64,000 bases of DNA from a bacterium (GCA_041640295.1 JBEQAR010000004.1:3128-67127), one strand, 5' to 3'. Positions 9,370-54,533 are shown, counted from the stretch's first letter. A program made the numbers and translations. The notes: generated by a model from the sequence alone, not told the origin.

Positions 9370-9765
9370 ATGTGGTTTAAAAAACGAAAACAAGATCAAG
9401 AGCAAAAACAAGATAAAGAGAGGGAAGAAAAAGAAAAAACTGAGACAAAATCTTCAGCGACTAAAATTGGTAGTGATTTATTTTTAGAAAAAAACTTAGA
9501 ATTATTACCCATTATTAGTGAAAAAACAAAAGCTTTAGTTAATAAAGAAAATACTTATACATTTAAAATTAGACCAGTTAGTGTTAATAAAACGGAAATA
9601 AAAAAAGCAATTGAAAAAATTTTTAAAGTAAAGGTTTTAGGTGTAAGAACAGTTAACTATAAAAAAAGGATACGCGGTAGAACAAGAATTCCTAATGTTA
9701 GATATAGATTTAAAAAAGCTTATGTAAAAATAGCTGACGGACAAAAAATAAATATTTTTGAGTAA
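9370..9765 (+). CDS. rplW: 50S ribosomal protein L23 with KE-rich N-terminal extension
   Basis: C-terminal ~95 aa match L23 (IRPVSVNKTE...KVLGVRTVNYKKR). N-terminal ~35 aa Lys/Glu-rich extension. Confidence 0.85.
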   Translation: MWFKKRKQDQEQKQDKEREEKEKTETKSSATKIGSDLFLEKNLELLPIISEKTKALVNKENTYTFKIRPVSVNKTEIKKAIEKIFKVKVLGVRTVNYKKRIRGRTRIPNVRYRFKKAYVKIADGQKINIFE

Positions 9766-9767
9766 TT

Positions 9768-10535
9768 TTAAGGTTGTGTTCTGATACAAAAAGTTAAAGC
9801 TTCATCATCGCCACTACAATCTCCTAAGCAAATATGTTTTAATACTCCTCCTCTATTTTGTTCACCAAAACAATAATCGGGGTTTCTATATACAGCGATG
9901 TCATTACTACCACTTAAATTTCTTACCCATGTAGCTCCTGGTGGTTGAGTACCTCTTTTGTATACGCCTTCTTTACCTAGACAACTAACTTCATCTTGTT
10001 CACAAGAATAAACTGCTATTAAATCACCAATATCAGCATAAAGATAAGATAACAAAAATTGACCTTCAGTTAGATAAGAATTTTGGTTGCCGAAATCAAA
10101 AACGACTGACATTAATCGGGGTATCATCAATATTCTGCTGTAACTATTAGGATCAACCTGGGTACCAGCACCCAATCTGATTGCTGTTAAATTAGTTGTC
10201 GAATTATAATTTAGTATTCTAAAAATGTTTTTATTGAGATCTATTAAATAACCGCCAGCAGAAGGTTTAGGTTTAAATTCAAAAATCGGATAGCCAAAAG
10301 TACCGTTATCTCCTGAATAATTACCATAATTATCGTCTCTGTAGCTGGAAACACCAAATATCAATTCTCTTTCATAACCGGGTGCGCTTGTGGGATTATA
10401 ATAAAATTTAAAGCCACGATTATCAGTTTTAAAAACAGTAATTCGATTTTGAGCTAAAACAAAACTCGTGGACAATAATAAGATAAATAATAATATATTT
10501 AAAATTTTATCTAATGCAATTAAAAACCTTTTCAT
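9768..10535 (-). CDS. Secreted Cys-rich protein, paralog 1 of 3 (unknown family)
   Basis: N-terminal signal peptide. Motifs FKTDNRGF, IGDLIAVYSCE, CLGKEG, CFG and LTFCIRT are shared with the two ORFs immediately upstream on the same strand. Confidence 0.6.
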   Translation of the reverse strand: MKRFLIALDKILNILLFILLLSTSFVLAQNRITVFKTDNRGFKFYYNPTSAPGYERELIFGVSSYRDDNYGNYSGDNGTFGYPIFEFKPKPSAGGYLIDLNKNIFRILNYNSTTNLTAIRLGAGTQVDPNSYSRILMIPRLMSVVFDFGNQNSYLTEGQFLLSYLYADIGDLIAVYSCEQDEVSCLGKEGVYKRGTQPPGATWVRNLSGSNDIAVYRNPDYCFGEQNRGGVLKHICLGDCSGDDEALTFCIRTQP

Positions 10536-10537
10536 TT

Positions 10538-11197
10538 TTAAAAATTAGTTCTAACACAAATAGTTAAACCAGCCTCCACCCCGCTAATAATTCCCATTAA
10601 TAAACCCTCGTGAATAACCTTTCCAAAACCAGGAGAATTACCGAAACAAAAAGATGGATTACCTGATTTACCCAAACAAGTTGGTGGATTTGAATCCCAC
10701 CATTCTCTTTCTTCACAAGTATAAATAGCTATTAAATCTCCTATTAAACCATAAACTTTAGCATAATTTTGGTAATAACCGCCGTTAGGTGCCGGTTGAT
10801 AATGATAAAGGTAGATATTTCCATTGGAATTACCACCAGAAATATTAGGTGGAGCTAAATCAACTATTATTGATTGCTTTGTGATTGTATTGTAAGAATA
10901 AATAAGGGTTCTACCATAGAAAGGTCTAATTAATAATTGATGTTGATTTAAAGCATTATTAGTATTTGTTGAATAAAAAGATAGCTGAGAAAGAAGTCCA
11001 GAATCAGTAATTGCTTTTGAGATTTCGAAATTATAATTACCCCATTGTGTTGGAAAACGTAAAATAAAACCATTATTGTCTGATTTAAATGTTGTATAAT
11101 TAAATGATTGAGCAGAAACTAAATACAAATTTATTCCAATAAGTAAAACTATTATTAATTTTAAAAAAATCTTTATTTTTATATTTAAATTTTTCAT
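10538..11197 (-). CDS. Secreted Cys-rich protein, paralog 2 of 3
   Basis: Signal peptide. Shared motifs FKSDNNGF, IGDLIAIYTCE, CLGKSG, CFG, LTICVRT. Confidence 0.6.
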   Translation of the reverse strand: MKNLNIKIKIFLKLIIVLLIGINLYLVSAQSFNYTTFKSDNNGFILRFPTQWGNYNFEISKAITDSGLLSQLSFYSTNTNNALNQHQLLIRPFYGRTLIYSYNTITKQSIIVDLAPPNISGGNSNGNIYLYHYQPAPNGGYYQNYAKVYGLIGDLIAIYTCEEREWWDSNPPTCLGKSGNPSFCFGNSPGFGKVIHEGLLMGIISGVEAGLTICVRTNF

Positions 11198-11207
11198 TAT
11201 CTATGTA

Positions 11208-11873
11208 TTAATCTAAAACGCATATTGTTAAAGCAGAATCATCTCCATTTCCCCCTCCGCAATCACCTGTACATATTTCTTGTAAAACTCGACCAGCATT
11301 GTTTCCAAAACATGTATTTGGATTGGTATGAATTCTTCTATTTTGATTCCAGATTACTCCTGGTGGCAATTGTTCAGGCTGTGTTCCAGTATAATATCCT
11401 CTCTTTCCTAAGCATGTACCAACAGGTGAACTATCTAACCAATCATTCCAAGAACAATTATAAATAGCAATTGCTTTTTCTAAATTAGCGTATATTGCAG
11501 CATATTGAAGACCAGGTCTTAATCTATTTTCATACAAAAAATAAACTGAACCTGTATTTGGTCTTAGATTTATAGAAACATATTTATCTGCTTCAGTATA
11601 ATCACGCAGGGTTGAATAGATATAACTTCCACCATAATGTGATGGTCTAATAATAGCTCTTAATCCAGTTGAACTTCCAAATAATAAATAGGGTGAAATT
11701 TCATCACTATCTAATCTTAATTCAGCTCTACTATTCTGAGTGGTAATAAATTTAAATCCTCTATTTTCTGTTTTAAATAAAGTAAATTTGTTACTTTGGC
11801 CAAAAACAAAATTTATTATTAAGATAATAAAAATCAAAGATAAAGTTAATATCACTAATTTTTTATAATTCAT
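11208..11873 (-). CDS. Secreted Cys-rich protein, paralog 3 of 3
   Basis: Signal peptide. Shared motifs FKTENRGF, AIAIYNCS, CLGKRG, CFG, LTICV. Confidence 0.6.
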   Translation of the reverse strand: MNYKKLVILTLSLIFIILIINFVFGQSNKFTLFKTENRGFKFITTQNSRAELRLDSDEISPYLLFGSSTGLRAIIRPSHYGGSYIYSTLRDYTEADKYVSINLRPNTGSVYFLYENRLRPGLQYAAIYANLEKAIAIYNCSWNDWLDSSPVGTCLGKRGYYTGTQPEQLPPGVIWNQNRRIHTNPNTCFGNNAGRVLQEICTGDCGGGNGDDSALTICVLD

Positions 11874-11983
11874 TTTTATTTTATAATTTTATAATATTAA
11901 ATAATATTAAATTATAAAAATATTTCAAATTAATTCAAATAATCATAATTTATACTTGATTAAAAATTTTTTTTAACTAAGCT

Positions 11984-13489
11984 ATGGAAATTACTCCTAT
12001 TGGTATTTCACATTTTAGAAGCAGAGAAATAAGATTCGGTATTAAGCGCGAAGACCGGCGCCGACATATGTATATTATTGGTAAAACAGGAAGCGGTAAA
12101 ACAACATTAATGGAAAATCTTGTTTTTTATGATATTAACTCAAACGAAGGATTAGCTTATTTAGACCCTCACGGCGACAGCATCTTAAGAATATTATCTT
12201 ATATTCCTAAAGAAAGAATAGAGCAGGTAATTTACTTTGATCCGTCTGATTTAAATTACCCTATCTCTTTTAATCCTTTAGAAAATGTTTCTTACGAAGC
12301 TCGACACATAATTGCTTCCAGCATTCTGTCAGTGATGAAAAAAATATGGGTTGATGCATGGTCAGCAAGAATGGAATATATTCTTTTAAACACTTTGTTA
12401 GCCTTATTAGAATACCCTAATGCTACATTATTGGATATTAACCGTTTATTAGGTGATGATAGCTTTAGGAGAAAAGTTGTTGATGGTTTAAAAGATCCTA
12501 TAGTAAAAAATTTTTGGGAAAAAGAATTCGCTCGTTACCATATGAATTTCCGCACTGAAGCTATTGCTCCAATCCAGAATAAAGTTGGTCAATTTATTTC
12601 TAGTCCTTTAATTAGAAATATTATTGGTCAAGAAAAAAGTTCATTTGATTTAAGAAAGGTGATGGATGAAAAGAAAATATTTTTAGCTAATTTATCTAAG
12701 GGTAAATTAGGTGAAGAAAATTCAATGCTTTTAGGAGGATTGTTGATTACTAAATTCCAATTAACAGCAATGAGTCGCGTTGATATACCCGAAGAGGAAA
12801 GAAATGATTTTTATCTTTATATTGACGAATTTCAAAATTTTGCTACCGAATCGTTCGTTAATATTCTTTCTGAAGCGAGAAAATATAGATTAAACTTAAT
12901 TTTAGCCCATCAATATTTGGATCAAGTTCCAGAAAGTATTATTAAAGCTGTTTTTGGTAATGTAGGTAATATGATTGTTTTTAGATGTGGAAGTTTAGAT
13001 GCAGAAATTTTAAGTAAAGAATTTGTTGAAATCCAACCCTATGAATTTATTAATTTACCCAAATATCATATTTATGCTAGGTTGGTTGTTGATGGAATTG
13101 TAACTCGTCCTTTTATGGGAATTACTTATCCACCGAGACCTTTACCAGAAATTGATTACACTGATGAAATAATTAAAATTTCCCGATTAAAGTATGCTCA
13201 AAATAGAAAAATAGTAGAAAGTAAAATTTTCGCTAAATATCAGGAAGCAAGAACAGAGAAAATGAAGCTGAGAGAGTGTAGTCAGTGTCATCAGGAATTT
13301 TGGGTAGATGAAAAATCAGATAAGAATATTTGTTATGAATGCGAAGAAAAATCAATTGGGATAAATATTTCCTCCTTAAGTTCTAAAAATTTAAATGTTT
13401 ATTTTAAAAATACAACCAAAATGATTGCTGAAGAAGAAAGTGATGAAAAAATTGTCGATCAATTATTAAAAAGATTGCTTAATGAATAA
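11984..13489 (+). CDS. TraD/VirD4/TrwB-like P-loop ATPase (type IV coupling-protein-like) with C-terminal Zn-ribbon
   Basis: Walker A IIGKTGSGKTT, Walker B LYIDEFQNF, ILAHQYLDQ. No N-terminal TM helices. C-terminal CxxC...CxxC (CSQCHQ...CYEC). Confidence 0.6.
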   Translation: MEITPIGISHFRSREIRFGIKREDRRRHMYIIGKTGSGKTTLMENLVFYDINSNEGLAYLDPHGDSILRILSYIPKERIEQVIYFDPSDLNYPISFNPLENVSYEARHIIASSILSVMKKIWVDAWSARMEYILLNTLLALLEYPNATLLDINRLLGDDSFRRKVVDGLKDPIVKNFWEKEFARYHMNFRTEAIAPIQNKVGQFISSPLIRNIIGQEKSSFDLRKVMDEKKIFLANLSKGKLGEENSMLLGGLLITKFQLTAMSRVDIPEEERNDFYLYIDEFQNFATESFVNILSEARKYRLNLILAHQYLDQVPESIIKAVFGNVGNMIVFRCGSLDAEILSKEFVEIQPYEFINLPKYHIYARLVVDGIVTRPFMGITYPPRPLPEIDYTDEIIKISRLKYAQNRKIVESKIFAKYQEARTEKMKLRECSQCHQEFWVDEKSDKNICYECEEKSIGINISSLSSKNLNVYFKNTTKMIAEEESDEKIVDQLLKRLLNE

Positions 13490-23219: not shown

Positions 23220-23429
23220 ATGAAAAGCAAGATTCATCCTAATTATTTTAAAACAACAGTTAAATGTGCTTGTGGTCAAACTTATGAAGTATTTTCAACT
23301 GAAAAAGAAATAAATGTTGAAATTTGTAAAAATTGCTCGCCAATTTTTATTGGAACGGAAGAAAAAAAGGTAATTACAGGCCAAATCGAAAAATTTAATA
23401 GAAAATATAAAAATAAAAAATCTTCCTAA
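23220..23429 (+). CDS. rpmE: 50S ribosomal protein L31
   Basis: MKSKIHPNY start and CxxC...CxxC zinc motif. Confidence 0.9.
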   Translation: MKSKIHPNYFKTTVKCACGQTYEVFSTEKEINVEICKNCSPIFIGTEEKKVITGQIEKFNRKYKNKKSS

Positions 23430-23457
23430 ATAAAATTTTACTTTACTTATCTCTAAA

Positions 23458-24198
23458 ATGCAAACCGAAGATTTAAATAATATTAATAATATTTTAATTG
23501 AAATTCGAGCGGGTGTAGGAGGTGAAGAAGCTGCTCTTTTTGCTCGTGATTTATGGCGAATGTATCTTAAGTTTTTTGAAAAAAATAACTTTAAGGTTAT
23601 TATTTATGATGAGGAGAAAACAAGCTTAGGGGGTATCAAGAATTTAATTGCTGAAGTAAGAGGAAGTGGTATTTATAATTTAATGAAAAACGAAGCAGGA
23701 GTTCATCGAGTACAAAGAATACCAGTGACTGAAAAGGGTGGTAGAATTCATACTTCGACAGCTTCAGTAGCTATTTTGCCTAAATTAGAAATCAAACCAG
23801 GAGAAATTAAAGAAAGTGATTTAGAGATAGAATTTTATCGTGCTTCTGGTCCTGGTGGTCAAAATGTTAATAAGGTTGAAACCGCTGTCAGAATTTTACA
23901 TAAACCAACAGGTATTATTGTCAATTGTCAATCAGAACGTACCCAACAAAGAAATAAAGAAATTGCTCTTCAAATATTAAAATCTAAACTTTGGCAAAAA
24001 GAACAAGAAGAATTATTAGGTAAAATAACAGAAGAAAGGAGAAAGCAAATTGGCAGTCAAGAACGATCAGAAAAAATAAGAACTTATAATTTTGTTCAAA
24101 ATAGAGTTACTGATCATCGTTTAGGAAAAAGTTGGTATAATTTAGATAATATTTTAGATGGTAATATCGAAGTAATTTTAAGAAGTTTTAATAAATAA
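23458..24198 (+). CDS. prfA: Peptide chain release factor 1-like, lacking N-terminal domain 1
   Basis: PVT codon-recognition tripeptide (RF1-type) and GGQ motif ([19 protein letters not shown]). Only 246 aa. Begins at the equivalent of E. coli RF1 residue ~105. Confidence 0.75.
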
Positions 24199-29835: not shown

Positions 29836-30225
29836 ATGGAATTTATCTTCCTTCTTTCAAGACTTATTCTTGGTCTTTATTTTTTATTTAATGCTTTTAA
29901 TCATTTTACAAAATTAGCTATGCTTGCTGAATATGCTAAAAGTAAAAATGTTCCAATGCCAAAATTGGCTGTTATATTTACGGGTTTTCTTTTATTAATT
30001 GGAGGCATTTCAATTTTGTTAGGAATTTATATAGAAATAGGAGTTTTAGCTTTAACTATATTCTTTTTACCAGTAACTTTTATAATGCATAATTTCTGGC
30101 AAATTCAAGATCCGCAAATGAAAATGATGGAAATGATAAATTTTTCAAAAAATATAGCAATTTGGGCAGGAGTTTTACTTTTACTTTTTGTTCCTCAACC
30201 TTGGATTTATTCGTTGGGCTGGTAA
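29836..30225 (+). CDS. DoxX family membrane protein
   Basis: 129 aa. Four TM helices, DoxX-like LILGLYFLFNAFNHF. Confidence 0.65.
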   Translation: MEFIFLLSRLILGLYFLFNAFNHFTKLAMLAEYAKSKNVPMPKLAVIFTGFLLLIGGISILLGIYIEIGVLALTIFFLPVTFIMHNFWQIQDPQMKMMEMINFSKNIAIWAGVLLLLFVPQPWIYSLGW

Positions 30226-33857: not shown

Positions 33858-33926
33858 AGATAAGCTTTGACAAAATTAGAATTTAATATGAGGCTTTTTA
33901 ATAGCCTAAGGGCTAGCGGTTAGTTT

Positions 33927-33998
33927 CGGGCTGTGGTGCAGTGGAAGCACGCTGGCTTCGGGTGCCAGAGGTCGTGGGTTCAAATCCCACCAGCCCGA
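33927..33998 (+). tRNA. tRNA-Pro (anticodon CGG)
   Basis: Manual fold: acceptor CGGGCTG/CAGCCCG (7 bp), D-arm GTGC-AGTGGAA-GCAC, anticodon arm CTGGC-TTCGGGT-GCCAG (anticodon CGG, G37), T-arm GTGGG-TTCAAAT-CCCAC, discriminator A. No encoded CCA. Confidence 0.85.
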
Positions 33999-34021
33999 AA
34001 AGAATATGTTAAAATATCAAA

Positions 34022-34432
34022 ATGACTGCTTTGGCTTTAATTTTTACTTTAGCGGCAATTGGAATTAGTGAAACTGTTTATCTTATTCGCAAAAGAATTG
34101 CTTCGGAAAAACCTGTTTGTATTTTAGGTGAAGATTGTGTAACTGTTTTAACCAGCAAATATAGTCGATTATTTATTATTCCCAATGATGTTTTAGGTTT
34201 TTTAGCGTATATTGTTATTGCAACAATTTCAGCATTTTTAGTAATTGGCGTTGAACCAATTTATTTTTGGAGTCTAATTCTTAAAATTCTAGTCTTTGTC
34301 GCTTCATTAATATCTCTTTTATTTACTTATCTTCAGTGGCGTGTTATTAAAGCTTGGTGTTTTTGGTGTTTAATGTCAGCTTTTACGATTTGGCTAATGG
34401 GTGTTATAATATTAGCAAGCCCAACAATTTGA
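34022..34432 (+). CDS. VKOR (vitamin K epoxide reductase) family disulfide-forming membrane protein
   Basis: 136 aa with several TM helices. Loop Cys pair CILGEDC and TM CxxC (WCFWCL) typical of bacterial VKOR. Confidence 0.55.
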   Translation: MTALALIFTLAAIGISETVYLIRKRIASEKPVCILGEDCVTVLTSKYSRLFIIPNDVLGFLAYIVIATISAFLVIGVEPIYFWSLILKILVFVASLISLLFTYLQWRVIKAWCFWCLMSAFTIWLMGVIILASPTI

Positions 34433-35888: not shown

Positions 35889-36269
35889 ATGACAAAAGCA
35901 GGGTTTCATATTTTAAGGGTTGGATTAGGGATAACATTTTTGTGGATTGGGGTTTTGATTTTTAAGCAGCCTGAAGCTTGGGGAGGATATTTAAAACCTT
36001 GGGCAGCTGGTCTTTTGCCTGTTCCTCTTTCGCAAGCAATGATAGGCACCGCAATTTTAGATATTGTTATAGGTTTTTTATTTCTTGTCGACACTTTTAC
36101 TTGGTTAGCCTCACTACTTGCAACTATTCATCTTATCATTGTTTTAACTGTTAGTGGTATCACTGATATAACTGTAAGAGATATAGCTATTTTAGCTGGC
36201 GCGATAGCAGTTTTACTTGATTCCTTACCGCAAAAGTTTCTTGACAAATTTAAAATTTTTAAAAAGTAA
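35889..36269 (+). CDS. Hypothetical membrane protein
   Basis: 126 aa. Predicted TM helices. No domain recognised. Confidence 0.4.
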   Translation: MTKAGFHILRVGLGITFLWIGVLIFKQPEAWGGYLKPWAAGLLPVPLSQAMIGTAILDIVIGFLFLVDTFTWLASLLATIHLIIVLTVSGITDITVRDIAILAGAIAVLLDSLPQKFLDKFKIFKK

Positions 36270-36310
36270 AGTATAATTGATACAAGTCGTCATTAACTAA
36301 ATAAAATTCT

Positions 36311-36847
36311 ATGAAAAATAAAATTCCTATAATCACTATAGCCGTCGGTTTAGTTATTATTTTAGGGTTTGCTGGTTATTACTTTTATAAAAAATCTACC
36401 CCTAGCCCAACACCAGAATTTCAAATTTCTCAACCACTTCAACCATCAGAAGAGGTTCAGCCACTACCAGAAGTAACACCTCCAGCTCCAACTGAACCTA
36501 CAGCAACTCCTTCATCCGAAGTTCAACCCCCAACCCAAAATGTTGTTATTTATACTGACTCTGGTTATTCGCCAAGTACTTTAAGAATCAAAGTTGGAGA
36601 AACTGTTACATTCAAAAATCAAAGCTCTCAAGCAATGTGGCCAGCTTCTGCTATGCATCCAAGCCATACAGTCTATAGTGGTACTTCTTTAGATGAACAT
36701 TGTCCTGATACAGCGGGAATAGCTTTTGATGCTTGTACTGGAATTCAACCAGGTAATTCTTGGAATTTTACCTTTAACAAAAAAGGAAGCTGGAAATACC
36801 ACGACCATCTAAATCCTTCATTTACCGGTACAATTATTGTTGAATAA
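36311..36847 (+). CDS. Secreted/membrane-anchored protein with Pro/Thr-rich linker and cupredoxin-like domain
   Basis: N-terminal TM or signal, PT-rich low-complexity linker, then beta-rich domain. TLRIKVGETVTFKNQS resembles the cupredoxin strand 1 pattern. His/Cys residues present but the ligand set is not canonical. Confidence 0.35.
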   Translation: MKNKIPIITIAVGLVIILGFAGYYFYKKSTPSPTPEFQISQPLQPSEEVQPLPEVTPPAPTEPTATPSSEVQPPTQNVVIYTDSGYSPSTLRIKVGETVTFKNQSSQAMWPASAMHPSHTVYSGTSLDEHCPDTAGIAFDACTGIQPGNSWNFTFNKKGSWKYHDHLNPSFTGTIIVE

Positions 36848-36849
36848 CA

Positions 36850-37719
36850 ATGAAGAAAATTATTTTTACTTTATCCCTTCTCTTTTTATTTAATTATCTT
36901 AATCAATTTACTTTTGCACAAGAAATCAATCTATCTCGTGATTTATATCTTGGTTTAAAAGGAAAAGATATAGAATTTTTGCAACAATTTTTAGCTAATG
37001 AAGGTGTTTATCCAGAAAAATATATCACTGGTTACTTTGGTCCTTTAACTAAAAAAGCAGTTATTAGATTTCAACAAAAATACAATATCTTTCCTCAACT
37101 TGGTTATGTTGGTCCCAAAACAAGAGCAAAGATTAACGAATTAATTTTACAAACAAAGTCAACAAAATCTTGTCCGACTATCGCACTTGATACCTCTAAA
37201 GGCAAAGAAGAATGTTTAAAATCAGCTGAATATCTTAATAAGATATATCCTGGATGTAATTATGCAAAAATATGTGAAGCAACTTCTTACCAAAAACCAT
37301 TTTTAGATTGTGGTCCAGCTCCAGGAGCGCCAGGAACTTGGAGATGTATTGATGGTATTTGGAAAAATATTAGTCAATGTGGAAAAATTCAATGTATCAG
37401 ATACGATCCAGTTTGTGGTACTGATGGTAGAACTTACGCTTGCGGAGAAGCTGATGCTGAATCTTGCGGTGTAGAAGTAGCTTACAAAGGAGAATGCAAA
37501 AAACAAGAATATCCAGCTCCGCCTCTTCCTAAGGAACGACCAGCAACATCATCAAAAAGTGTTCCAGCTCAAAGATTGCCTCAACCAATTTTCTGCACTC
37601 AAGAATGGAATCCAGTTTGTGGAGTAGATAATAAAACCTATTCTAATGAATGTATGGCAAGAGCAGCTGGCGTTGAAGTTAAATATAAAGGTGAGTGTCA
37701 ATCGACAATGAGTCGTTGA
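36850..37719 (+). CDS. Secreted protein with peptidoglycan-binding domain and two Kazal-type inhibitor domains
   Basis: Signal peptide. PG_binding_1-like LKGKDIEFLQQFL...GYFGPLTKKAVIRFQ. Two Kazal signatures, C-x(5)-PVCGTDGRTYA-C...C and C-x(5)-PVCGVDNKTYSNEC...C. Confidence 0.65.
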   Translation: MKKIIFTLSLLFLFNYLNQFTFAQEINLSRDLYLGLKGKDIEFLQQFLANEGVYPEKYITGYFGPLTKKAVIRFQQKYNIFPQLGYVGPKTRAKINELILQTKSTKSCPTIALDTSKGKEECLKSAEYLNKIYPGCNYAKICEATSYQKPFLDCGPAPGAPGTWRCIDGIWKNISQCGKIQCIRYDPVCGTDGRTYACGEADAESCGVEVAYKGECKKQEYPAPPLPKERPATSSKSVPAQRLPQPIFCTQEWNPVCGVDNKTYSNECMARAAGVEVKYKGECQSTMSR

Positions 37720-40743: not shown

Positions 40744-41429
40744 TTACAAATAGTTAAAGCAATAATATTTTTACACCCTTTATCTTTAAGAACTTTAGCT
40801 AACTCAAAGATAGTACTACCAGTGGTGATAATATCGTCAACAATTATTAAATTTTGGGGTGGCGGTTGATTAACGGCAAAACAATCTTTAATATTTATCA
40901 ATCTTTGATGATAATCTAATTTAGCTTGATATTCTGTTTCCTTAATTTTTTTAATGCCTTTAAAAATTGGTAAATTTAAATTGCGAGCAATTTTTTTAGC
41001 AAGAACTTCAGATTGGTTAAATCCGCGAAGTTTTTCTATTTTCTTACTTAAGGGAACATATGTTAGAGAAAAATTTTTAAGATTTAATATTTTTAGTTTT
41101 TCTGAAATTAATTCCCCCCACCAGAGAAATATTCGCCAATAGTTATTAAATTTACCATCAATAATTAATTGCGCTATAGGTAAATTTTGATAATCATTGA
41201 AGGTAATTAAAGTTTTTACTAAATTACTGCAACAAACTGAAGTTAATTTTTCATCAATTGGTTTTCTTCTTTGACATTTAGGGCAAAAAAGAAATAAATC
41301 AAAATTTAATTTTTGCAAGCAATTATTACATAAATAAGATGAATTTAAAAAATTTAAGCATTGATAGCAGAAATAAGGAAATAAAAAATTTTCAGAAATG
41401 TTATATAATTTTCTTATTATGTTTAACAT
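40740..41429 (-). CDS. comFC: ComF family phosphoribosyltransferase-domain competence protein
   Basis: N-terminal Cys-rich zinc finger (CPKCQRR) and C-terminal PRTase motif IVDDIITTGST. Confidence 0.75.
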   Translation of the reverse strand: MLNIIRKLYNISENFLFPYFCYQCLNFLNSSYLCNNCLQKLNFDLFLFCPKCQRRKPIDEKLTSVCCSNLVKTLITFNDYQNLPIAQLIIDGKFNNYWRIFLWWGELISEKLKILNLKNFSLTYVPLSKKIEKLRGFNQSEVLAKKIARNLNLPIFKGIKKIKETEYQAKLDYHQRLINIKDCFAVNQPPPQNLIIVDDIITTGSTIFELAKVLKDKGCKNIIALTICK

Positions 41430-42471
41430 TTTTGGTTCAAAAAAAATTTTAGGCGTAGATTTGGGTTCAAAGAATATTAAAATAGCTGAGATAGAAAAAT
41501 ATAAAAACTCTTTTATTTTAACTAATTATATTATAATTGAACTTGAAGGTGGCGAGAGGATATCATCCTTATTAGAAACTTCACAGATTTATGAGGAGAA
41601 TTTATCCAAAATTTTAGAAAATGGATTTAAAGAATTTAAAATCAAAGATGTAGTTTATTCAGTTTCTATTTTTTATTATTTTTATACGAATTTCTCTTTA
41701 CCCTATATTCCACCCAATGCTCTGAAGAATGCAATTAATTTTGAATATCGGAAGTATATCCCTGTTGGTTATGAAAAATTTCAAATAGAGTGGCGTAATA
41801 TTAAACACTCACCCTTCAATTTAGAAGGGCAAGATAAATGGTTAATTTTTTTTACCGCTATACCCGAAAGTTATTTAAACAAAATTAAAAATATCTCCCA
41901 ATTAGCTAAAGTAAGATTTCAAAAAGCCTACCCCGAATTTTTAACTCTCGAACCATTTTTTAAAGAAAATAAAGAAAATATTATTTTGATTGATATTGGT
42001 TATTCTTATTCTTATGCTGTTTTAATAAAAGAAAATCAAGTTATCAATGCTAAAAAATTTAATTTAACCACAAAGAATATTATTGATACTTTAATGAATC
42101 TTCTAAGTGTTGGTCATCAGGAAGCTGAAGATTTTTTTATTAAGAAAGGTTTTCAAATTGCTCCCGAAGAACTTGATTTAAAAAAAGCTTTAGGAGAAAT
42201 TATTGACAATTTTTCTTCTCAGGTTTTAAGCTTAAAAGAAAGTTGGGAAGCAACATTTGGTACAAAAATTAGCTTAATTTATCTGACCGGCGGCTTAAGT
42301 TTGGCTAAGGGATTATTAGATGTTGTTAGTACTAAAATACCCAATATTTCCTTTGCAATTTTTAATCCTTTAGAGAAAAACATTATTCCTGGTGATAATA
42401 TTCAGAATCGATTGAATGGTTCGGTTTTAGTTCAGGCAATGGGTTCTTGTCTAAAATTTTTCTTAAGTTAA
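41398..42471 (+). CDS. pilM: Type IV pilus assembly protein PilM (actin-like ATPase)
   Basis: ILGVDLGSKNIKIAEI N-terminus. 357 aa. Heads the pil cluster. Confidence 0.8.
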   Translation: MLYNFLIMFNIFGSKKILGVDLGSKNIKIAEIEKYKNSFILTNYIIIELEGGERISSLLETSQIYEENLSKILENGFKEFKIKDVVYSVSIFYYFYTNFSLPYIPPNALKNAINFEYRKYIPVGYEKFQIEWRNIKHSPFNLEGQDKWLIFFTAIPESYLNKIKNISQLAKVRFQKAYPEFLTLEPFFKENKENIILIDIGYSYSYAVLIKENQVINAKKFNLTTKNIIDTLMNLLSVGHQEAEDFFIKKGFQIAPEELDLKKALGEIIDNFSSQVLSLKESWEATFGTKISLIYLTGGLSLAKGLLDVVSTKIPNISFAIFNPLEKNIIPGDNIQNRLNGSVLVQAMGSCLKFFLS

Positions 42472-42490
42472 AATATTAATAAATAAAGAT

Positions 42491-42994
42491 ATGTTTAAAA
42501 ATATTTGGGAATTAATACCACATCGTTTATTTTATTTTTTGGTTATTGGTTTGATTTTAAGTTATGTTGGAAGTTATAGTTTAGATTATTTAACTAAAAT
42601 TAACAATAGAAAGATTAATGAATTAAAAGCTGAGATTGAAAATATCAAATCACAATATTCAGAACAAGTTAATACTGAAGCTTATCAAGCCTTAATGCAC
42701 TTTTTATCCCTTAAATATTTAATAGATCAAAAAAAATCTATCCTACCTTTAATTCAACAACCACCGAGATATTTACCTAAATTTCTTAAAATTACATCAG
42801 TTTCAATTGAAAATCAAACCAATAAAATTAAATTAACCGGTCAAGTTAATGGTTGGGTAAATTATTCAAGATTGATTAATTATTTTGAATCCCAAAATAA
42901 TATTTTTAAAGATTTTAAAATTGAAAGTTATTCTTTTGATAATTCAACTGGATTAATTAATGTCAATTTAAGTTTTATTTATAATATCCAATGA
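42491..42994 (+). CDS. pilN: PilN-like inner-membrane pilus assembly protein
   Basis: Single N-terminal TM plus coiled coil. Position after pilM. Confidence 0.5.
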   Translation: MFKNIWELIPHRLFYFLVIGLILSYVGSYSLDYLTKINNRKINELKAEIENIKSQYSEQVNTEAYQALMHFLSLKYLIDQKKSILPLIQQPPRYLPKFLKITSVSIENQTNKIKLTGQVNGWVNYSRLINYFESQNNIFKDFKIESYSFDNSTGLINVNLSFIYNIQ

Positions 42995-43551
42995 GGTTGT
43001 TAATTAATTTAATTTTTATAATTTTATTTTTCTTCTTTATTAATTCAGTATTTACTTCTTTGATTCCTTCGTATAAAAATTATCTGTCATCAGCTAAAGC
43101 AAAAAATGAAATTGAAAATGAATTAATTAAAACAAAAGCAATTGAGGAACAATTTAAATTTTTACAATCCAAAAGCGTTGCTGACATCTTAAAAATAAAA
43201 AAAGCAAATTTTTTTGATTATTTTTTACCCTCAAAATTCATTGATTATGAATTAACAATGTTTATTAATCAAATTTTTTATATTAGTAATTTTCCTCAGC
43301 CCAATATTTATTCTTTTAACAAAACAGAATTCACCCACCCTGAGTTTAAAAAAGCAAAAATGACTAAATTTAGTTTTTCAGTCAGTGAAAAAAGTAATTT
43401 AGATGATTTGATAAAATTAATTAATAATTTAGAAAATAGTAGTCGAATTTTTGTTATTGAATCTATTAATTTTAGCCCAGCTTCTGAAGGAAATGTTATT
43501 AATGCTAGTTTAAATATTTCAACTTATTACTACAATTATCAACAACAATGA
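42991..43551 (+). CDS. pilO: PilO-like pilus assembly protein
   Basis: N-terminal TM, coiled coil. Position. Confidence 0.45.
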   Translation: MRLLINLIFIILFFFFINSVFTSLIPSYKNYLSSAKAKNEIENELIKTKAIEEQFKFLQSKSVADILKIKKANFFDYFLPSKFIDYELTMFINQIFYISNFPQPNIYSFNKTEFTHPEFKKAKMTKFSFSVSEKSNLDDLIKLINNLENSSRIFVIESINFSPASEGNVINASLNISTYYYNYQQQ

Positions 43552-43841
43552 AATTTGATAATTTATTAAAATTCAAAGCTTTTAATTTAATTTCGTTAAT
43601 TTTAAGCCTGGTTATTTTAGGAGCAATTATCTATATTGCTTTTTGGGAATTAAATATTTTTAAAAAGGAAAAAGAAATTCCATTAGAAATTAAAGAAATA
43701 GAAAATGAATTAACTATTCTTTCAAAGTTAAATTTAACTTTATTATCTGAAGAGTTAAGGTCTAAATTACCCCAACCTCAGGTTTTATCTCAACCAACTA
43801 TCTCTCCTGATATGATAGGTAAAAATAATTGGTTTGAATAA
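43548..43841 (+). CDS. Small membrane protein of the pilus assembly operon
   Basis: 97 aa, one TM. Translationally coupled between pilO-like and pilB. Confidence 0.35.
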   Translation: MKFDNLLKFKAFNLISLILSLVILGAIIYIAFWELNIFKKEKEIPLEIKEIENELTILSKLNLTLLSEELRSKLPQPQVLSQPTISPDMIGKNNWFE

Positions 43842-43854
43842 AAGTTAAGTAATA

Positions 43855-45573
43855 ATGACTTTTAACGAATTTTTAAAAGAAAAATTAAAAGATAAGATAG
43901 AAAATATCGACGAGTTAATTAAAGAAGCAGAAAAAAATAAGATATATATAGAAGAATTTTTTTATCGTTTGGGCTTATTAGATGATAACTTTTTGGATTT
44001 AAAGGCTGAATTTTATAAATTGCCTGCTAAAAAATTTCTTTATGACGAGCAAATCCCTTCAGAAATTTTAAATTTAATTTCTGAGGATTTTTCTAAACAA
44101 CGACAGGTGATAGCTTTTGATAAAAAAGAAGATGGTATTTATATCGGTGTTGTTAATCCTGAAATTCCACCCTTGATGGAAACTGTTAATTATTTACAAT
44201 CCACCTATAATCAAGAAATTAAAACTTTTCTTATTTCAATTAAAGATTATTTTTTAATTTTTAGACAATATCATAAATTTTCCGATGTATTAAAAGAAAT
44301 TTTGTTTTCACTGAGAAAAACAAAACCATTAATTACTGAAGCGGAAATTGTTAAATTGGAAGAAGAATTATTACCCACAGAAGAAGCACCGGTTATTAAA
44401 TTAGTCCAATCATTAATTGAAGAAGCTGTCTATTTACAAGCTTCAGACATTCATATTGAACCACTTTCTCGCAAATTAAAAATTAGATTTCGTCTTTTGG
44501 GTGATTTAAAAACAATTGCTTATTTACCAAAAGACTTACATCAACAAATAACTAATCGTATAAAAGTCTTAGCTAAACTAAAATTAGATGAATCTCGTAT
44601 TCCTCAAGATGGACGAATTAGGGTCTTTGTTCATGGTCGAGAAATAGACTTAAGGATAGGTATATTTCCAACAATTGAAGGAGAAAAAGTCGAAATTAGA
44701 ATCTTAGATCCTTTAGTTGGGTTGAAAAAAATATCTGGATTAGGAGTTTTAAATTATCATGAAAATAAATTGAATGAAGGGATTAAAAGTCCTTATGGAT
44801 TAATTTTAATTACTGGCCCAACTGGCTCTGGAAAAACAACTACTCTCTATGCTATTTTACAAGAATTGGCTAATGAAAAAATAAATATTGTTAGTTTAGA
44901 AGATCCAGTTGAATATCGATTAGATGGAATAAATCAATCTCAAGTTAGACCAGAAATTAATTATACTTTCGCTAATGGCTTAAGAAGTATTTTAAGGCAA
45001 GACCCTGATGTTATTTTTGTTGGTGAAGTAAGAGATTTAGAAACTGCTGATTTATGTATACATGCTTCTCTTACGGGTCACTTAGTTTTATCAACGCTTC
45101 ATACTAATACTGCTATTGGTGCTATTTCAAGATTAATTGATTTAGGTATAGAAAGGTTTTTACTGCCAGAAACAATTAGATTAATTATAAGCCAAAGATT
45201 AGCTAAAAGATTGTGTGATAATTGTAAAAAGGAAATTGAACCACCTCAAGATATTAAAAAAATAATTTTAGAAAATTTAACAGATGTTGATAAAGAAATT
45301 ATTTCTAATTTAAATATTGATATTAATAATCCTAAAATTTATCATCCTGAAGGTTGTGAAAGATGTAATTATCGCGGATATATTGGTAGAAGTGGTATTT
45401 TTGAAATTGTAATTATGACTGATGAGTTGAGGAATGCTGTTTATGAAGGAAAAAAAATTGATGAAATTGAAAAACTTTTAAAAAATCAAAAATTTGTTAG
45501 TTTAAGGCAAGATGGAATTATTAAATCTTTGATAGGTTGGTTTACTATTGAAGAAATTATAAAAATAACTTAA
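43855..45573 (+). CDS. pilB: Type IV pilus assembly ATPase PilB (GspE family)
   Basis: Walker A GPTGSGKTTTL, Asp box, His box, tetracysteine CDNC...CERC. Confidence 0.9.
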   Translation: MTFNEFLKEKLKDKIENIDELIKEAEKNKIYIEEFFYRLGLLDDNFLDLKAEFYKLPAKKFLYDEQIPSEILNLISEDFSKQRQVIAFDKKEDGIYIGVVNPEIPPLMETVNYLQSTYNQEIKTFLISIKDYFLIFRQYHKFSDVLKEILFSLRKTKPLITEAEIVKLEEELLPTEEAPVIKLVQSLIEEAVYLQASDIHIEPLSRKLKIRFRLLGDLKTIAYLPKDLHQQITNRIKVLAKLKLDESRIPQDGRIRVFVHGREIDLRIGIFPTIEGEKVEIRILDPLVGLKKISGLGVLNYHENKLNEGIKSPYGLILITGPTGSGKTTTLYAILQELANEKINIVSLEDPVEYRLDGINQSQVRPEINYTFANGLRSILRQDPDVIFVGEVRDLETADLCIHASLTGHLVLSTLHTNTAIGAISRLIDLGIERFLLPETIRLIISQRLAKRLCDNCKKEIEPPQDIKKIILENLTDVDKEIISNLNIDINNPKIYHPEGCERCNYRGYIGRSGIFEIVIMTDELRNAVYEGKKIDEIEKLLKNQKFVSLRQDGIIKSLIGWFTIEEIIKIT

Positions 45574-45584
45574 AATTTTAAAAA

Positions 45585-46646
45585 ATGAATGAAAAATTAA
45601 AAAGAATTTTTTATATTGCTTCTCAAAGAAATGCTTCTGATGTTCATATTACTCCAGTAAGATACCCAACCTTAAGAATAGATGGTAATTTGCTTACTTT
45701 AAATGAGGAAGGAATTATTTCTTCAAGTGAATCAAAAGAATTATTATTTTCTTTATTAACTGAAGAACAAAGAAACTATTTATTAAAATACAAAGATTTA
45801 GATTTTTCTTTTAATATTGATGATAAAATAAGGATTCGGGCCAATATCTATTTTCAAAATAATGGTTTAGCAGGAGCTTTTCGATTAATTACTACCGAAA
45901 TCAAAACTATTGAAGAATTAAATTTACCCCCCATACTACATGAATTTATTAAAAGAAAACAGGGTTTAATACTGATTACTGGTCCAGCAGGCGTTGGTAA
46001 ATCAACCACTTTAGCTGCTCTAATTGATGAAATAAATCACACCCGACCAGCTCATATTATTACTATTGAAGAACCAATTGAATATATCTTTATCCCAGAT
46101 TTAGCTTTAATTTCCCAAAGAGAGATACCAAGAGATTCTCCTACTTGGCATCGAGCTTTAAGGGCAGCATTGAGAGAAGATCCAGATATTATTATGATTG
46201 GTGAATTAAGAGATGAAGTTTCAATTCAAATTGCCTTAACTGCTGCTGAAACAGGTCATTTAGTTTTAGGTACTCTTCATACTAATTCAGCTTCCCAAAC
46301 AATTGATAGAATTTTGGATGTTTTACCTGAAGATAAGAAAAATCAGGCGAGATATCAACTTGCGTCAACATTAGTTGGTATTATTTCCCAAAGATTAGTA
46401 AATAGGATCAAGGGCGGTAGAATTCCTGCTTGTGAAGTTTTAATTGCTAATACTGCTGTTAAAAATCTTATCAGAGAAAATAAAATTTATCAAATAGATC
46501 TTGTTATTGAAACAAGTTTTGAATCTGGTATGTTTACTTTAGAAAGATCCTTAGCAACCTTAGTTAATTTAGGTGAAGTAAGTTTAGAAACTGCTTATAA
46601 TTACGCTCTTAATATTGATAGATTAAATAATTTGTTAAAAAGATAA
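45585..46646 (+). CDS. pilT: Twitching motility / pilus retraction ATPase PilT
   Basis: GPAGVGKSTTLAALI. 353 aa. No tetracysteine. PilT length. Confidence 0.88.
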   Translation: MNEKLKRIFYIASQRNASDVHITPVRYPTLRIDGNLLTLNEEGIISSSESKELLFSLLTEEQRNYLLKYKDLDFSFNIDDKIRIRANIYFQNNGLAGAFRLITTEIKTIEELNLPPILHEFIKRKQGLILITGPAGVGKSTTLAALIDEINHTRPAHIITIEEPIEYIFIPDLALISQREIPRDSPTWHRALRAALREDPDIIMIGELRDEVSIQIALTAAETGHLVLGTLHTNSASQTIDRILDVLPEDKKNQARYQLASTLVGIISQRLVNRIKGGRIPACEVLIANTAVKNLIRENKIYQIDLVIETSFESGMFTLERSLATLVNLGEVSLETAYNYALNIDRLNNLLKR

Positions 46647-46661
46647 TTTCAATAAAATAAA

Positions 46662-47867
46662 ATGAAATTTGAATTTAGGGGTTTTGATCGCGATGGTAAT
46701 TTTAAAACTGGGATAATAGAGGCTGCTAATCAACAAGAGGCTATTTCTTTACTTCAAAATCAAGGATTAGTAGTAACTTATATTAGCAAACCAACTGTTC
46801 CTAAATTTTTAATTACTTTTTCTAAAATTTCTTTATTAGATTTAGCTTTTTTTTGTAGTTCTTTTAAATTTTTACTTAAATCAAGAACACCTCTTGATGA
46901 AGCAGTTAAAACCTTATCCTATCAAGTTACTAAACCAAGATTTAAAACCATTCTAGAAGATATTTACCAGCAAATTATTAGTGGTTTACCATTATCTGAA
47001 GCTTTAGAGAAATATCCAGAAACATTCCCTAAATCAATGACTAAGTTAATTAAAATAGGAGAAGTGGCAGGAAAACTTGAAGAAGTTTTTGATAATTTAG
47101 CAGAATATTTTGAAAATCAACACAAACTTCTTAGTAAGGTTATACAATCTTTATATTATCCAGTAATTGTTATTTTAATTTTTCTTGCAACAATGGCTTT
47201 TATATTTTTTCAAGTTGTACCCCAAATTAGTAAGCTTTTTATAGAAAATGGAATTGCTCTTCCCGCTGTTACTCAAAAATTTTTAACTATTTCTAATTTT
47301 TTATTTTCTTATTGGTATTATATTTTAGCAGGTTTAATTATTTTTAATTATATTTTGATAGAATTTTTAAAAACAGATGACGGAAAGCTTTTTCTATATA
47401 ACTTTTTTGTTAATGTTCCAATAGTTGGTGTTCTATTGAAAGAAATCTATATTATTGCCTTTTTGCAATCATTAATTTTTCTTATTAAAGGAGGACTTCC
47501 ACTTTCTGAAAGTTTAGAAATTGTTGCTAATAGTATTACTAATCCTTATTATAAAAATGCTATTAGTTATTTAGCCGAAGAAACAAGACGAGGTAAACCA
47601 GTTTCTGAAGCTATCAAAATTTTCCCTGATTTATTTCCACCTTTTGTTGTTCAATCTTTTGCTACAGGAGAAAAAACTGGTGAATTATCTAATACCTTAG
47701 GAACAATTTTAGAATATTATAATTTAGATGTTAATAATAAAACTGCTAATTTGGGTGAGGCAATTCAACCAATAATCATTATTGTTTTAGCTATTGGTTT
47801 AATTTTTATTGAACTTTCTTTAATTATTCCTATTTCTGAATTAGCTAAAACAATTAGACAATTTTAG
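46662..47867 (+). CDS. pilC: Type IV pilus inner-membrane platform protein PilC (GspF family)
   Basis: Two T2SS-F repeats. 401 aa. Position after pilB/pilT. Confidence 0.85.
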   Translation: MKFEFRGFDRDGNFKTGIIEAANQQEAISLLQNQGLVVTYISKPTVPKFLITFSKISLLDLAFFCSSFKFLLKSRTPLDEAVKTLSYQVTKPRFKTILEDIYQQIISGLPLSEALEKYPETFPKSMTKLIKIGEVAGKLEEVFDNLAEYFENQHKLLSKVIQSLYYPVIVILIFLATMAFIFFQVVPQISKLFIENGIALPAVTQKFLTISNFLFSYWYYILAGLIIFNYILIEFLKTDDGKLFLYNFFVNVPIVGVLLKEIYIIAFLQSLIFLIKGGLPLSESLEIVANSITNPYYKNAISYLAEETRRGKPVSEAIKIFPDLFPPFVVQSFATGEKTGELSNTLGTILEYYNLDVNNKTANLGEAIQPIIIIVLAIGLIFIELSLIIPISELAKTIRQF

Positions 47868-47901
47868 TTATCCACAATTTATGAAATTTTTACTAAATTT
47901 A

Positions 47902-47910
47902 TGATATAAT
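47902..47910 (+). promoter_or_regulatory. Putative extended -10 promoter element (TGaTATAAT) upstream of the pilin gene
   Basis: Perfect TGnTATAAT about 85 nt upstream of the pilin start. Weak -35 (tgaaat at 17-nt spacing). Confidence 0.3.
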
Positions 47911-47995
47911 TATTTTTGATAAACCTTATAACTCAATATTAAAATTGAAAATTGGTCGAATATTAAGAAAATTATTAAAAATTAAATAATTAAAA

Positions 47996-48547: not shown

Positions 48548-48628
48548 AAACTAATAAAAACTAACTAATAAAAATCTAAAAATTGAAAAAAAATTTAGAC
48601 TATAATATTCAAATTAACAGAGAAAGTA

Positions 48629-53920: not shown

Positions 53921-53921
53921 T

Positions 53922-54503: not shown

Positions 54504-54533
54504 ATTTAATTTAAGATTAATGCAAACAAATTT

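What the first reader, a model, noticed from the sequence alone, without database searches (positions are those of the whole stretch)
9768..11873. Tandem triplet of paralogous secreted Cys-rich proteins of unknown family replacing the distal S10 operon
Three consecutive minus-strand genes of 219-255 aa each have a signal peptide and a shared motif order: FK(T/S)(D/E)N(R/N)GF, then IRP, then (I/A)GDLIA(V/I)Y.CE, then CLGK.G, then CFG, then LT(F/I)C(V/I). The C-terminal module is a 5-6-Cys knot-like region. I do not recognise a known domain. They sit convergent to rplW exactly where rplB-rpsS-rplV-rpsC would normally continue, so the most conserved operon in bacteria is interrupted by a lineage-specific secreted family. 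The co-encoded VKOR-like disulfide-forming protein at 34022-34432 is consistent with oxidative folding of such proteins.
Basis: partly seen in the sequence, partly recalled or inferred. Interest (0 to 1): 0.6.

Follow-up and report, generated by a model that had tools for sequence, protein, structure and literature searches.

The report
Orphan secreted three-gene paralog operon
Three neighbouring genes in a tiny, uncultured Paceibacteria (Patescibacteria) genome encode related exported, disulfide-bonded beta-sheet proteins with no detectable relatives outside one small clade; they are real and conserved, but their function is unknown and they did not cause the break in the ribosomal-protein operon beside them.

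Summary
Three adjacent minus-strand genes (C 11208-11873, B 10538-11197, A 9768-10535) are significant paralogs (BLASTP E 2e-11 to 4e-14). Each has one N-terminal signal peptide, a conserved motif just after the predicted cleavage site, and a C-terminal module with 4 (B) or 6 (A, C) cysteines.

The same C-B-A operon, convergent on rplW, occurs in every lineage found that carries the family. The three orthogroups give the same species tree, so there was one old triplication and no loss since.

A profile search of 1.84 billion representative proteins found only 12 real relatives. Pfam, NCBIfam, PHROGs, PADLOC, PDB sequences and Foldseek (PDB, BFVD) gave nothing, even with a pLDDT-87 model. No charged or catalytic-type residue is invariant. 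Cysteine counts are always even.

Best reading: Sec-exported, disulfide-stabilised, non-enzymatic all-beta proteins that probably co-assemble at the cell surface. The export and disulfide steps are supported; the assembly and role are inferred.

"Replacing the distal S10 operon" is not supported. A close relative (L011) has rplW followed directly by the ATPase-efp genes, with no triplet and no rplB. The break therefore exists without the triplet. The neighbouring VirD4-like ATPase is Patescibacteria-wide and not specifically linked. Interest is modest.

The parts
11208..11873 (-). Gene C, first gene of the operon (221 aa). Signal peptide residues 1-25 (11799-11873); predicted mature N-terminus QSNKFTLFKTENRGF; 6-Cys C-terminal module at 11211-11495.
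   Evidence: ORF and translation; hydropathy and Cys positions; orthogroup C conserved in L001, L003, L006, L008, L010, L091, L092.
10538..11197 (-). Gene B, middle gene (219 aa). Minimal core of the family. Signal peptide residues 1-29 (11111-11197); 4-Cys C-terminal module at 10541-10756.
   Evidence: AF2 model of the mature protein: pLDDT 87.3, pTM 0.58, eleven beta-strands (the first nine a consecutive run) and one short helix. No Foldseek match in PDB or BFVD.
9768..10535 (-). Gene A, last gene (255 aa). Signal peptide residues 1-28 (10452-10535); conserved N-terminal motif QNRITVFKTDNRGFKFYY (10398-10451); 6-Cys C-terminal module at 9771-10043. Its stop codon lies 2 bp from the rplW stop codon.
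   Evidence: 11 orthologs at 45-99% identity. AF2 full-length model pLDDT 69, with residues 30-41 below 50.
11874..11983 (.). 110-bp AT-rich divergent intergenic region between gene C and the ATPase gene. Contains sigma-70-like hexamers on the minus strand (TTGAAT-16-TATAAT, 11938-11911), a candidate promoter for the C-B-A operon.
   Evidence: These are consensus matches only; the number found is not above the shuffled expectation (15 found against a mean of 20.4).
9370..9765 (+). rplW (L23), the last gene of the truncated rpsJ-rplC-rplD-rplW block. It forms the boundary of the triplet and is not part of it.
   Evidence: Pfam Ribosomal_L23 in the sibling loci.
11984..13489 (+). Soluble VirD4/TraD-like (T4CP-like) ATPase with a C-terminal zinc ribbon, overlapping efp by 8 nt. 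It is a neighbour, not a demonstrated partner.
   Evidence: Pfam TrwB_AAD_bind 1.3e-6; NCBIfam hits all below cut-off. At least 596 related loci across Patescibacteria, and none of the best 80 carries the triplet. Literature: PMC12102498.
34022..34432 (+). VKOR-family membrane protein, a candidate oxidant for disulfide formation in exported proteins. Its link to the triplet is an inference.
   Evidence: Pfam PF07884, E 9e-23.

Best explanation
The three genes form one vertically inherited operon (C then B then A). It encodes three non-redundant paralogs of an orphan protein family confined to one small Paceibacteria clade.

Proposed mechanism, step by step:
1. Each protein is exported by the Sec pathway.
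2. Signal peptidase I cleaves it just before a conserved Gln (V-x-A/S/G | Q).
3. Two (B) or three (A, C) disulfide bonds form outside the cell, plausibly oxidised by the genome's VKOR.
4. The mature 21-25 kDa proteins are all-beta and non-enzymatic.
5. They most likely co-assemble into, or decorate, an extracellular or cell-surface structure of this wall-bounded episymbiont. This structure would be an envelope or host-contact component.

The triplet sits at a junction between rplW and the T4CP-like ATPase-efp genes. That junction is also present in a close relative (L011) that lacks the triplet. The triplet does not replace rplB and the downstream genes, and it is not specifically tied to the ATPase.

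Shown here: real genes, paralogy, conservation, signal-peptide features, the even-cysteine rule, absence of relatives, and the synteny history. Inferred: disulfide formation by VKOR, co-assembly, surface location, and role.
For: Paralogy.

Conserved operon: C-B-A convergent on rplW is found in every lineage carrying the family, namely the contigs L001-L010, L091-L092 and L093-L097.

Single triplication, no loss: the three orthogroups each give the same species topology.

Tight operon: gaps of -4 to 34 nt between the genes.

Export: one N-terminal hydrophobic segment and no second TM segment, lipobox, Tat motif, type IV pilin motif or C-terminal sorting signal. The -1 residue is A/S/G in 24 of 24 members and -3 is V/S/A/I/L.

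Disulfides: mature Cys count is 4, 6 or 8 in all 31 members once a signal-peptide Cys is excluded, and extra cysteines appear only in pairs. VKOR is present.

Not an enzyme: no invariant D/E/H/S/K. The invariant residues are Cys, Gly, Pro, Asn, aromatic or aliphatic.

Fold: all-beta model with pLDDT 87.

Rate: these proteins evolve faster than their neighbours (35-58% identity against 75-95% for the ATPase and tuf), as exposed proteins often do, while keeping intact ORFs.

Orphan status.

Junction history.
Against: No direct evidence of expression, localisation or interaction.

No multimer prediction was possible.

There is no anchoring motif (lipobox, LPXTG, C-terminal TM), so the proteins could simply be released into the medium.

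SignalP was not available; the signal-peptide call rests on hydropathy and the -3/-1 rule.

Strict co-retention of the three genes also fits three independent but individually useful effectors.
Confidence: 0.45

Rival explanations
1. The three proteins are independent soluble secreted effectors, such as lectins, host-targeting toxins or binding proteins. They are released into the medium and act separately on the host cell, not as a co-assembled structure.
For: No anchoring motif of any kind. Fast evolution relative to neighbouring genes. Small, disulfide-stabilised extracellular domains.
Against: All three orthogroups are retained in fixed order, without loss or further duplication, in every lineage. 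The genes are tightly spaced or overlapping. A shared conserved N-terminal motif suggests a common processing or assembly step. None of this is decisive.
Confidence: 0.25
2. The proteins are subunits of a donor-strand-type fibre, a non-type-IV pilus. The conserved strand right after the signal-peptide cleavage site inserts into the neighbouring subunit. A, B and C would act as major, minor and tip subunits.
For: The segment just after the cleavage site is among the most conserved parts of the family (T33 100%, N39 97%). Yet it is the least confidently placed part of both monomer models: below 50 pLDDT in A and 65 in B against 87-93 elsewhere. The tandem paralogous small beta proteins resemble pilin operons.
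Against: No sequence or structural match to TasA, Csu/SCPU, chaperone-usher, or archaeal thread or bundling pilins. No chaperone, usher, SipW-type peptidase or sortase is adjacent. In the B model the N-terminus forms some beta-bridges within the monomer. The genome already has a full type IV pilus system.
Confidence: 0.1
3. The triplet is functionally coupled to the adjacent VirD4/TraD-like ATPase, as substrates or components of a type IV secretion-like apparatus.
For: Divergent arrangement with a shared 110-bp intergenic region, conserved in every family-bearing contig that reaches the ATPase gene.
Against: The ATPase is conserved across Patescibacteria at 46-73% identity. None of the 80 best loci outside the clade has the triplet, including L011, which has the same rplW-ATPase-efp synteny. 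The proteins carry Sec signal peptides, which T4SS substrates do not need. There are no T4SS Pfam hits. The literature reports such T4CP homologues as widespread and mostly unlinked to virB4 (PMC12102498). In L008 another gene separates the two.
Confidence: 0.04
4. The ORFs are gene-call artefacts or decaying pseudogenes filling a rearrangement scar next to rplW.
For: No known domain. AT-rich genome in which long ORFs arise easily. Located at an operon breakpoint.
Against: Intact orthologs at 35-65% identity in several distinct lineages, with invariant cysteines and motifs. A high-confidence fold prediction. Pairwise paralog E-values down to 4e-14.
Confidence: 0.01

Closest known systems
Csu / 'spore coat protein U' (SCPU) archaic chaperone-usher pilins
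   Same: Small Sec-exported beta proteins with paired cysteines, encoded as several tandem paralogs. They have a conserved N-terminal strand used for assembly.
   Different: No Pfam SCPU hit in any of 28 members. No chaperone or usher genes nearby. Patescibacteria lack the outer membrane that system needs (my own knowledge). This is an analogy only.
TasA/camelysin fibres and archaeal donor-strand filaments (bundling pili, threads)
   Same: Signal-peptide-cleaved beta-rich subunits of monoderm or archaeal envelopes. The segment just after the cleavage site is conserved and mediates polymerisation.
   Different: No sequence hit. No Foldseek hit to any such structure in the PDB. No SipW-type peptidase or accessory gene adjacent. 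Strand exchange was not tested here.
Type IV pilins of Patescibacteria
   Same: Surface appendage proteins of the same organism. Pilin genes in this window also carry paired cysteines (47996-48547; 53408-55740).
   Different: A, B and C lack the class III leader and the G|F-T-L-x-E N-methylation motif and the Pfam N_methyl hit that the window's pilin gives. They are ordinary Sec/SPase I substrates.
OspA-type antiparallel beta-meander surface proteins
   Same: The secondary structure is a run of consecutive beta-strands. OspA chains appear among the top Foldseek rows for the B model.
   Different: The matches are not significant (E 0.4-1.6, TM 0.14-0.17). OspA is a lipoprotein without disulfides, and A, B and C have no lipobox.
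Lineage-specific hypothetical secreted proteins of CPR/Patescibacteria genomes
   Same: Narrow distribution, no annotation, signal peptide. NCBI and JGI call these proteins 'hypothetical protein'.
   Different: This one is unusually well defined: a fixed three-gene operon, a fixed genomic position and a confidently predicted fold.

Membership tests
Sec / signal peptidase I secretory proteins | N-terminal positively charged n-region, a 10-20 residue hydrophobic h-region, and small residues at -1 and -3 of the cleavage site | tested here: met
   One hydrophobic 19-mer at the N-terminus only (KD 2.3-3.0). The -1 residue is A/S/G in 24 of 24 members and -3 is V/S/A/I/L. This is a heuristic; SignalP was not available.
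Disulfide-bonded exported proteins (VKOR/Dsb-dependent) | Even number of conserved cysteines in the exported part, and an oxidant encoded in the genome | tested here: met
   Mature parts have 4, 6 or 8 Cys in all 31 members. The two apparent '7' counts include a Cys inside a longer signal peptide. Extra cysteines occur only as pairs. VKOR at 34022-34432. Actual disulfides and dependence on VKOR are not testable here.
Cystine-knot / knottin-like modules | At least three disulfides (six Cys), with one threading through the ring formed by the other two | tested here: not met
   Paralog group B keeps only four cysteines in the homologous module. The shared core therefore cannot be a cystine knot. 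The topology in A and C is not testable without coordinates.
Type IV pilins / pseudopilins | Class III leader ending in Gly, followed by F/M-T/S-L-x-E and a hydrophobic helix (Pfam N_methyl) | tested here: not met
   Regex found 0 of 31. No N_methyl hit, whereas the window's pilin at 47996-48547 does hit N_methyl.
Bacterial lipoproteins | Lipobox [LVI][ASTVI][GAS]C at the end of the signal peptide | tested here: not met
   0 of 31 members.
Sortase-anchored (LPXTG) surface proteins | C-terminal LPXTG-like motif, followed by a hydrophobic segment and a basic tail | tested here: not met
   The proteins end in ...GLTIC(V/I)R(T/K)x with no C-terminal hydrophobic segment. The only two LPxTx regex hits lie near the N-terminus, at about residue 37.
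TasA/camelysin (Peptidase_M73) and SCPU pilin families | Match to the family profile or fold | tested here: not met
   No Pfam hit at E<=10 in any of 28 members. No Foldseek PDB hit with E<0.1.
Type IV secretion system components or substrates | Homology to VirB/Prg/Trs components, or co-occurrence with the T4SS/T4CP across genomes | tested here: not met
   No T4SS profile hit. The T4CP-like ATPase occurs in at least 596 loci, and the 80 best loci outside the clade all lack the family.
Anti-phage defence systems (PADLOC) | Match to a defence-protein profile | tested here: not met
   0 hits for A, B and C.
Secreted hydrolases / enzymes in general | Invariant catalytic-type residues (D/E/H/S/K) across the family | tested here: not met
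   The positions that are at least 85% identical across all groups are T, N, G, F, P, I, Y, C, L, Q and R only. None is D/E/H/S/K.

The most novel reading that the evidence does not exclude
A, B and C are the subunits of a previously unknown heteromeric extracellular structure with a new fold, such as a fibre or envelope lattice. It would be assembled through the conserved N-terminal strand and locked by disulfides. A Paceibacteria lineage (several members come from MAG series whose names suggest hot springs; habitat not verified) would use it to attach to its host.
Probability: 0.12. Interest if true: 0.55.

Novelty: categorically new. Interest (0 to 1): 0.3.

Why it matters
How Patescibacteria build their envelopes and attach to hosts is largely unknown, and their genomes are full of unannotated secreted proteins. 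This trio is a clean, tractable case: a fixed operon, a confident fold prediction, obligatory disulfides, and no relatives in 1.84 billion representative proteins (standing for about 15 billion). It could be expressed and solved to test whether it is a new surface structure.

'Categorically new' is meant here only in the narrow sense of an orphan family and fold with no detectable relatives. No new mechanism has been demonstrated. The family is restricted to one small uncultured clade, so its general importance is limited.

The synteny result also corrects the operon claim. The S10 cluster in this group ends at rplW whether or not the triplet is present.

Tried and rejected
- Pfam, NCBIfam, PHROGs and PADLOC on the three proteins, and Pfam on all 28 family members at E<=10: no recurrent hit. 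The single RSV_NS2 hit (16.4 bits against a cut-off of 27) overlaps the signal peptide and is spurious.
- Profile search against PDB sequences at E<=10: 0 hits.
- Foldseek of both AF2 models against PDB, and of the B model against BFVD: nothing with E<0.02 or TM>0.34.
- P0028, the only hit outside the family in the exhaustive search, is a 1062-aa repetitive sequence and was rejected.
- Looked for further paralogs in the window with the family HMM at E<=100: none.
- Looked for an ATP-cone remnant in the window and sibling loci: none.
- Tried to fetch a >=90% identical sibling genome for dN/dS. P0031 was not on record, and the other contigs carry identical proteins, so no unsaturated dN/dS could be computed.
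- The family alignment A4 was too divergent for the metagenome scan. The A-group alignment found only two more loci, with the same layout.
- Literature searches on operon splitting in Patescibacteria and on the KatS3mg MAGs gave nothing relevant.
- The location of rplB and the rest of the cluster could not be determined with the tools and caps available.

Full report
**What is there.** The window is a low-GC (about 28%) Patescibacteria genome segment. On the plus strand it carries rpoB, rpoC, tuf, rpsJ, rplC, rplD and rplW (9370-9765). Three minus-strand ORFs follow: A 9768-10535 (255 aa), B 10538-11197 (219 aa) and C 11208-11873 (221 aa). After them, on the plus strand, come a 501-aa ATPase (11984-13489), efp, and then trpS and murD on the minus strand. 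GC content across the triplet (0.282) does not differ from its surroundings.

The three proteins are paralogs: BLASTP A/B 2e-11, A/C 4e-14, B/C 1e-12. Each protein has one N-terminal hydrophobic segment and no other. Predicted mature sizes are 21-25 kDa.

**Are the genes real?** A word-indexed search found 11 orthologs of A at 45-99% identity, all from Parcubacteria/Patescibacteria MAGs. A profile search added the B group.

An exhaustive HMMER profile search was run over 1.84 billion representatives, standing for about 15 billion proteins. It returned 13 hits. Twelve are family members. The thirteenth is a repetitive 1062-aa sequence and is spurious.

Genomic look-ups show the same layout everywhere the family occurs: rpoB-rpoC-tuf-rpsJ-rplC-rplD-rplW, then C-B-A convergent on rplW, then the divergent ATPase-efp. 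This holds in:
- L001 (KatS3mg094, a 634-kb contig), L003, L006, L008 and L010;
- two further metagenome loci, L091 and L092;
- five contigs carrying the identical protein.

A neighbour-joining tree separates three orthogroups, each with the topology ((window, L001), L003), (L006, L008). The triplication therefore predates the clade, and no copy has been lost since. Gaps between the genes are -4 to 34 nt, so this is a tight operon. Amino-acid identity to the siblings is 35-58% for A, B and C. It is 90-95% for tuf, 75-80% for the ATPase and 50-60% for L23. The genes evolve fast but stay intact, and they are not artefacts.

**What kind of proteins?**
- *No known family.* There is no Pfam, NCBIfam, PHROGs or PADLOC match. 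No Pfam family recurs among 28 members even at E<=10. There is no PDB sequence match at E<=10.
- *Structure.* AlphaFold2 on full-length A gave pLDDT 69. On mature B, with a 27-sequence alignment, it gave pLDDT 87.3 and pTM 0.58. That model has eleven beta-strands, the first nine in a consecutive run, and one short helix.
- *Export signal.* Residues before the conserved Gln obey the signal peptidase I rule: -1 is A/S/G in 24 of 24 members and -3 is V/S/A/I/L. No lipobox, Tat motif, type IV pilin motif, C-terminal LPXTG or second TM segment exists.
- *Cysteines.* Mature cysteine counts are 4, 6 or 8 in all 31 members. The two apparent 7s include a cysteine inside a longer signal peptide. Additional cysteines arise only in pairs: the ICxGDC pair in A and C, and a further pair in some A orthologs. 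This is the signature of obligatory disulfides.
- *No catalytic signature.* No D/E/H/S/K is conserved across the family. The conserved positions are Cys, Gly, Pro, Asn, Thr, aromatic and aliphatic residues. This argues for a structural or binding role rather than catalysis.

**Context and the operon claim.** The S10 cluster therefore does stop at rplW here.

The ATPase is a soluble VirD4/TraD-like protein: Pfam TrwB_AAD_bind 1.3e-6, with NCBIfam TraD/VirD4 models hitting below cut-off. It has at least 596 related loci in one-genome-per-species GTDB contigs. The top 80 are 46-73% identical and spread over many Patescibacteria lineages. A family HMM search of the six-frame ORFs of those 80 loci found no member of the A/B/C family.

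The closest of these loci is L011 (Ca. Paceibacter sp. KUB_Bin06, ATPase 73% identical). It has rpoC-tuf-rpsJ-rplC-rplD-rplW, then a 92-aa ATP-cone gene, then ATPase-efp, all on one strand, with no triplet and no rplB. In trees, L011 falls just outside the triplet-bearing clade, or at its base, on a short branch. Gain after the L011 split and loss in L011 are therefore both possible.

Either way, the junction between rplW and the ATPase-efp genes, that is, the break of the S10 cluster, exists without the triplet. The triplet occupies a variable spot:
- an ATP-cone gene in L011;
- the triplet in the window clade;
- the triplet plus a 670-aa secreted orphan in L008.

It does not 'replace' rplB and the downstream genes. 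[quoted passage not shown] This fits the ATPase being a widespread gene with no specific tie to the triplet.

VKOR at 34022-34432 is confirmed and is a reasonable oxidant. It lies 22 kb away, and the window has other exported Cys-containing proteins, so the link is only circumstantial.

**Most likely mechanism.**
- *Shown or strongly supported:* an operon of three non-redundant, Sec-exported, SPase I-processed, disulfide-bonded, non-enzymatic all-beta proteins under purifying selection.
- *Inferred:* they co-assemble, probably in fixed stoichiometry, into or onto an extracellular or cell-surface structure. That structure would serve envelope or host-contact functions in this episymbiotic lineage.

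The inference rests on four points: strict co-retention in fixed order, tight gene spacing, a shared conserved motif just after the cleavage site, and faster evolution than neighbouring genes. A donor-strand type of assembly is a speculative sub-hypothesis. The N-terminal motif is highly conserved but is the least confidently placed part of both monomer models. There is no similarity to any known donor-strand pilin.

The rivals are independent soluble effectors, T4SS-coupled function and artefact. They are weighed in the structured fields. The last two are essentially excluded.

**Comparison with known systems.** The defining features of the following were tested and not met: type IV pilins, lipoproteins, LPXTG proteins, TasA/SCPU pilins, T4SS components, defence proteins and cystine knots. 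Only the generic classes are met: Sec/SPase I substrate and disulfide-bonded exported protein.

**Verdict.** This is a real, well-defined orphan family with no detectable sequence or Foldseek relatives, confined to a small Paceibacteria clade. It is new as a family and apparently as a fold. No new mechanism is demonstrated, and such lineage-specific secreted proteins are common in these genomes. The eye-catching part of the original claim, that the family interrupts the S10 operon, is not supported. Interest is modest (0.3).

Noticed in passing
window 11984-13489 (+); L013 8662-9984: The ATPase is a soluble VirD4/TraD-like protein with no TM segment and a C-terminal CxxC...CxxC zinc ribbon. 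It overlaps efp by 8 nt. It is conserved at 46-73% identity across many Patescibacteria lineages (at least 596 loci). In L013 a 440-aa membrane protein lies directly upstream, which may be its partner. The literature notes such T4CP homologues are mostly unlinked to virB4 and may be exapted.
   Followed up: partly
window 9370-9765 (+): Ribosomal protein L23 is 131 aa, with a Lys/Glu-rich N-terminal extension of about 35 aa. L23 is 135-139 aa in the other triplet-bearing lineages. In L011, which lacks the triplet, it is only 99 aa.
   Followed up: no
window 9763-9770: The stop codons of rplW and gene A are convergent and only 2 bp apart. No terminator-like hairpin was found anywhere near the junction, so the convergent transcripts must overlap or end by some other means.
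   Followed up: partly
L011 9719-9997; L008 5204-7216: The rplW|ATPase junction is a variable spot. L011 has a stand-alone 92-aa ATP-cone protein there. L008 and L009 have an extra 670-aa signal-peptide-bearing orphan protein with no Pfam hit, between the ATPase and gene C.
   Followed up: partly
window 41398-49477 (+) and 53408-55740 (-): A complete type IV pilus gene set is present: a PilM-like gene, two small genes (only the second with a weak PilO/T2SSM-like hit), PilB, PilT, PilC, a pilin with an N_methyl motif, and the prepilin peptidase. Four further pilin-like genes with hydrophobic N-termini and paired cysteines lie on the minus strand.
   Followed up: partly
window 36850-37719 (+): A secreted protein combines a peptidoglycan-binding domain (PG_binding_1) with a Kazal-type serine protease inhibitor domain (E 6.5e-13). 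I believe Kazal domains are uncommon in bacteria (not checked here).
   Followed up: no
window 59528-64000 (+): A very large ORF of at least 1,490 aa runs off the window end. It has an N-terminal signal-like segment and a subtilisin-like D-T-G/H-G-T-H motif region, and is probably a giant secreted protease.
   Followed up: no
window 23221-24198 (+): The peptide chain release factor ORF is only 246 aa. Its PCRF match starts at profile position 94, so the N-terminal domain appears to be missing. An L31-like small ORF (23221-23429) sits directly upstream.
   Followed up: no
window 29836-30225, 34022-34432, 35889-36847: A cluster of redox and membrane genes lies near tRNA-Pro (33926-33999): two DoxX-family proteins, VKOR and a cupredoxin-like secreted protein. 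I believe cupredoxin and DoxX genes are unusual for a reduced fermentative Patescibacteria genome (not checked here).
   Followed up: no
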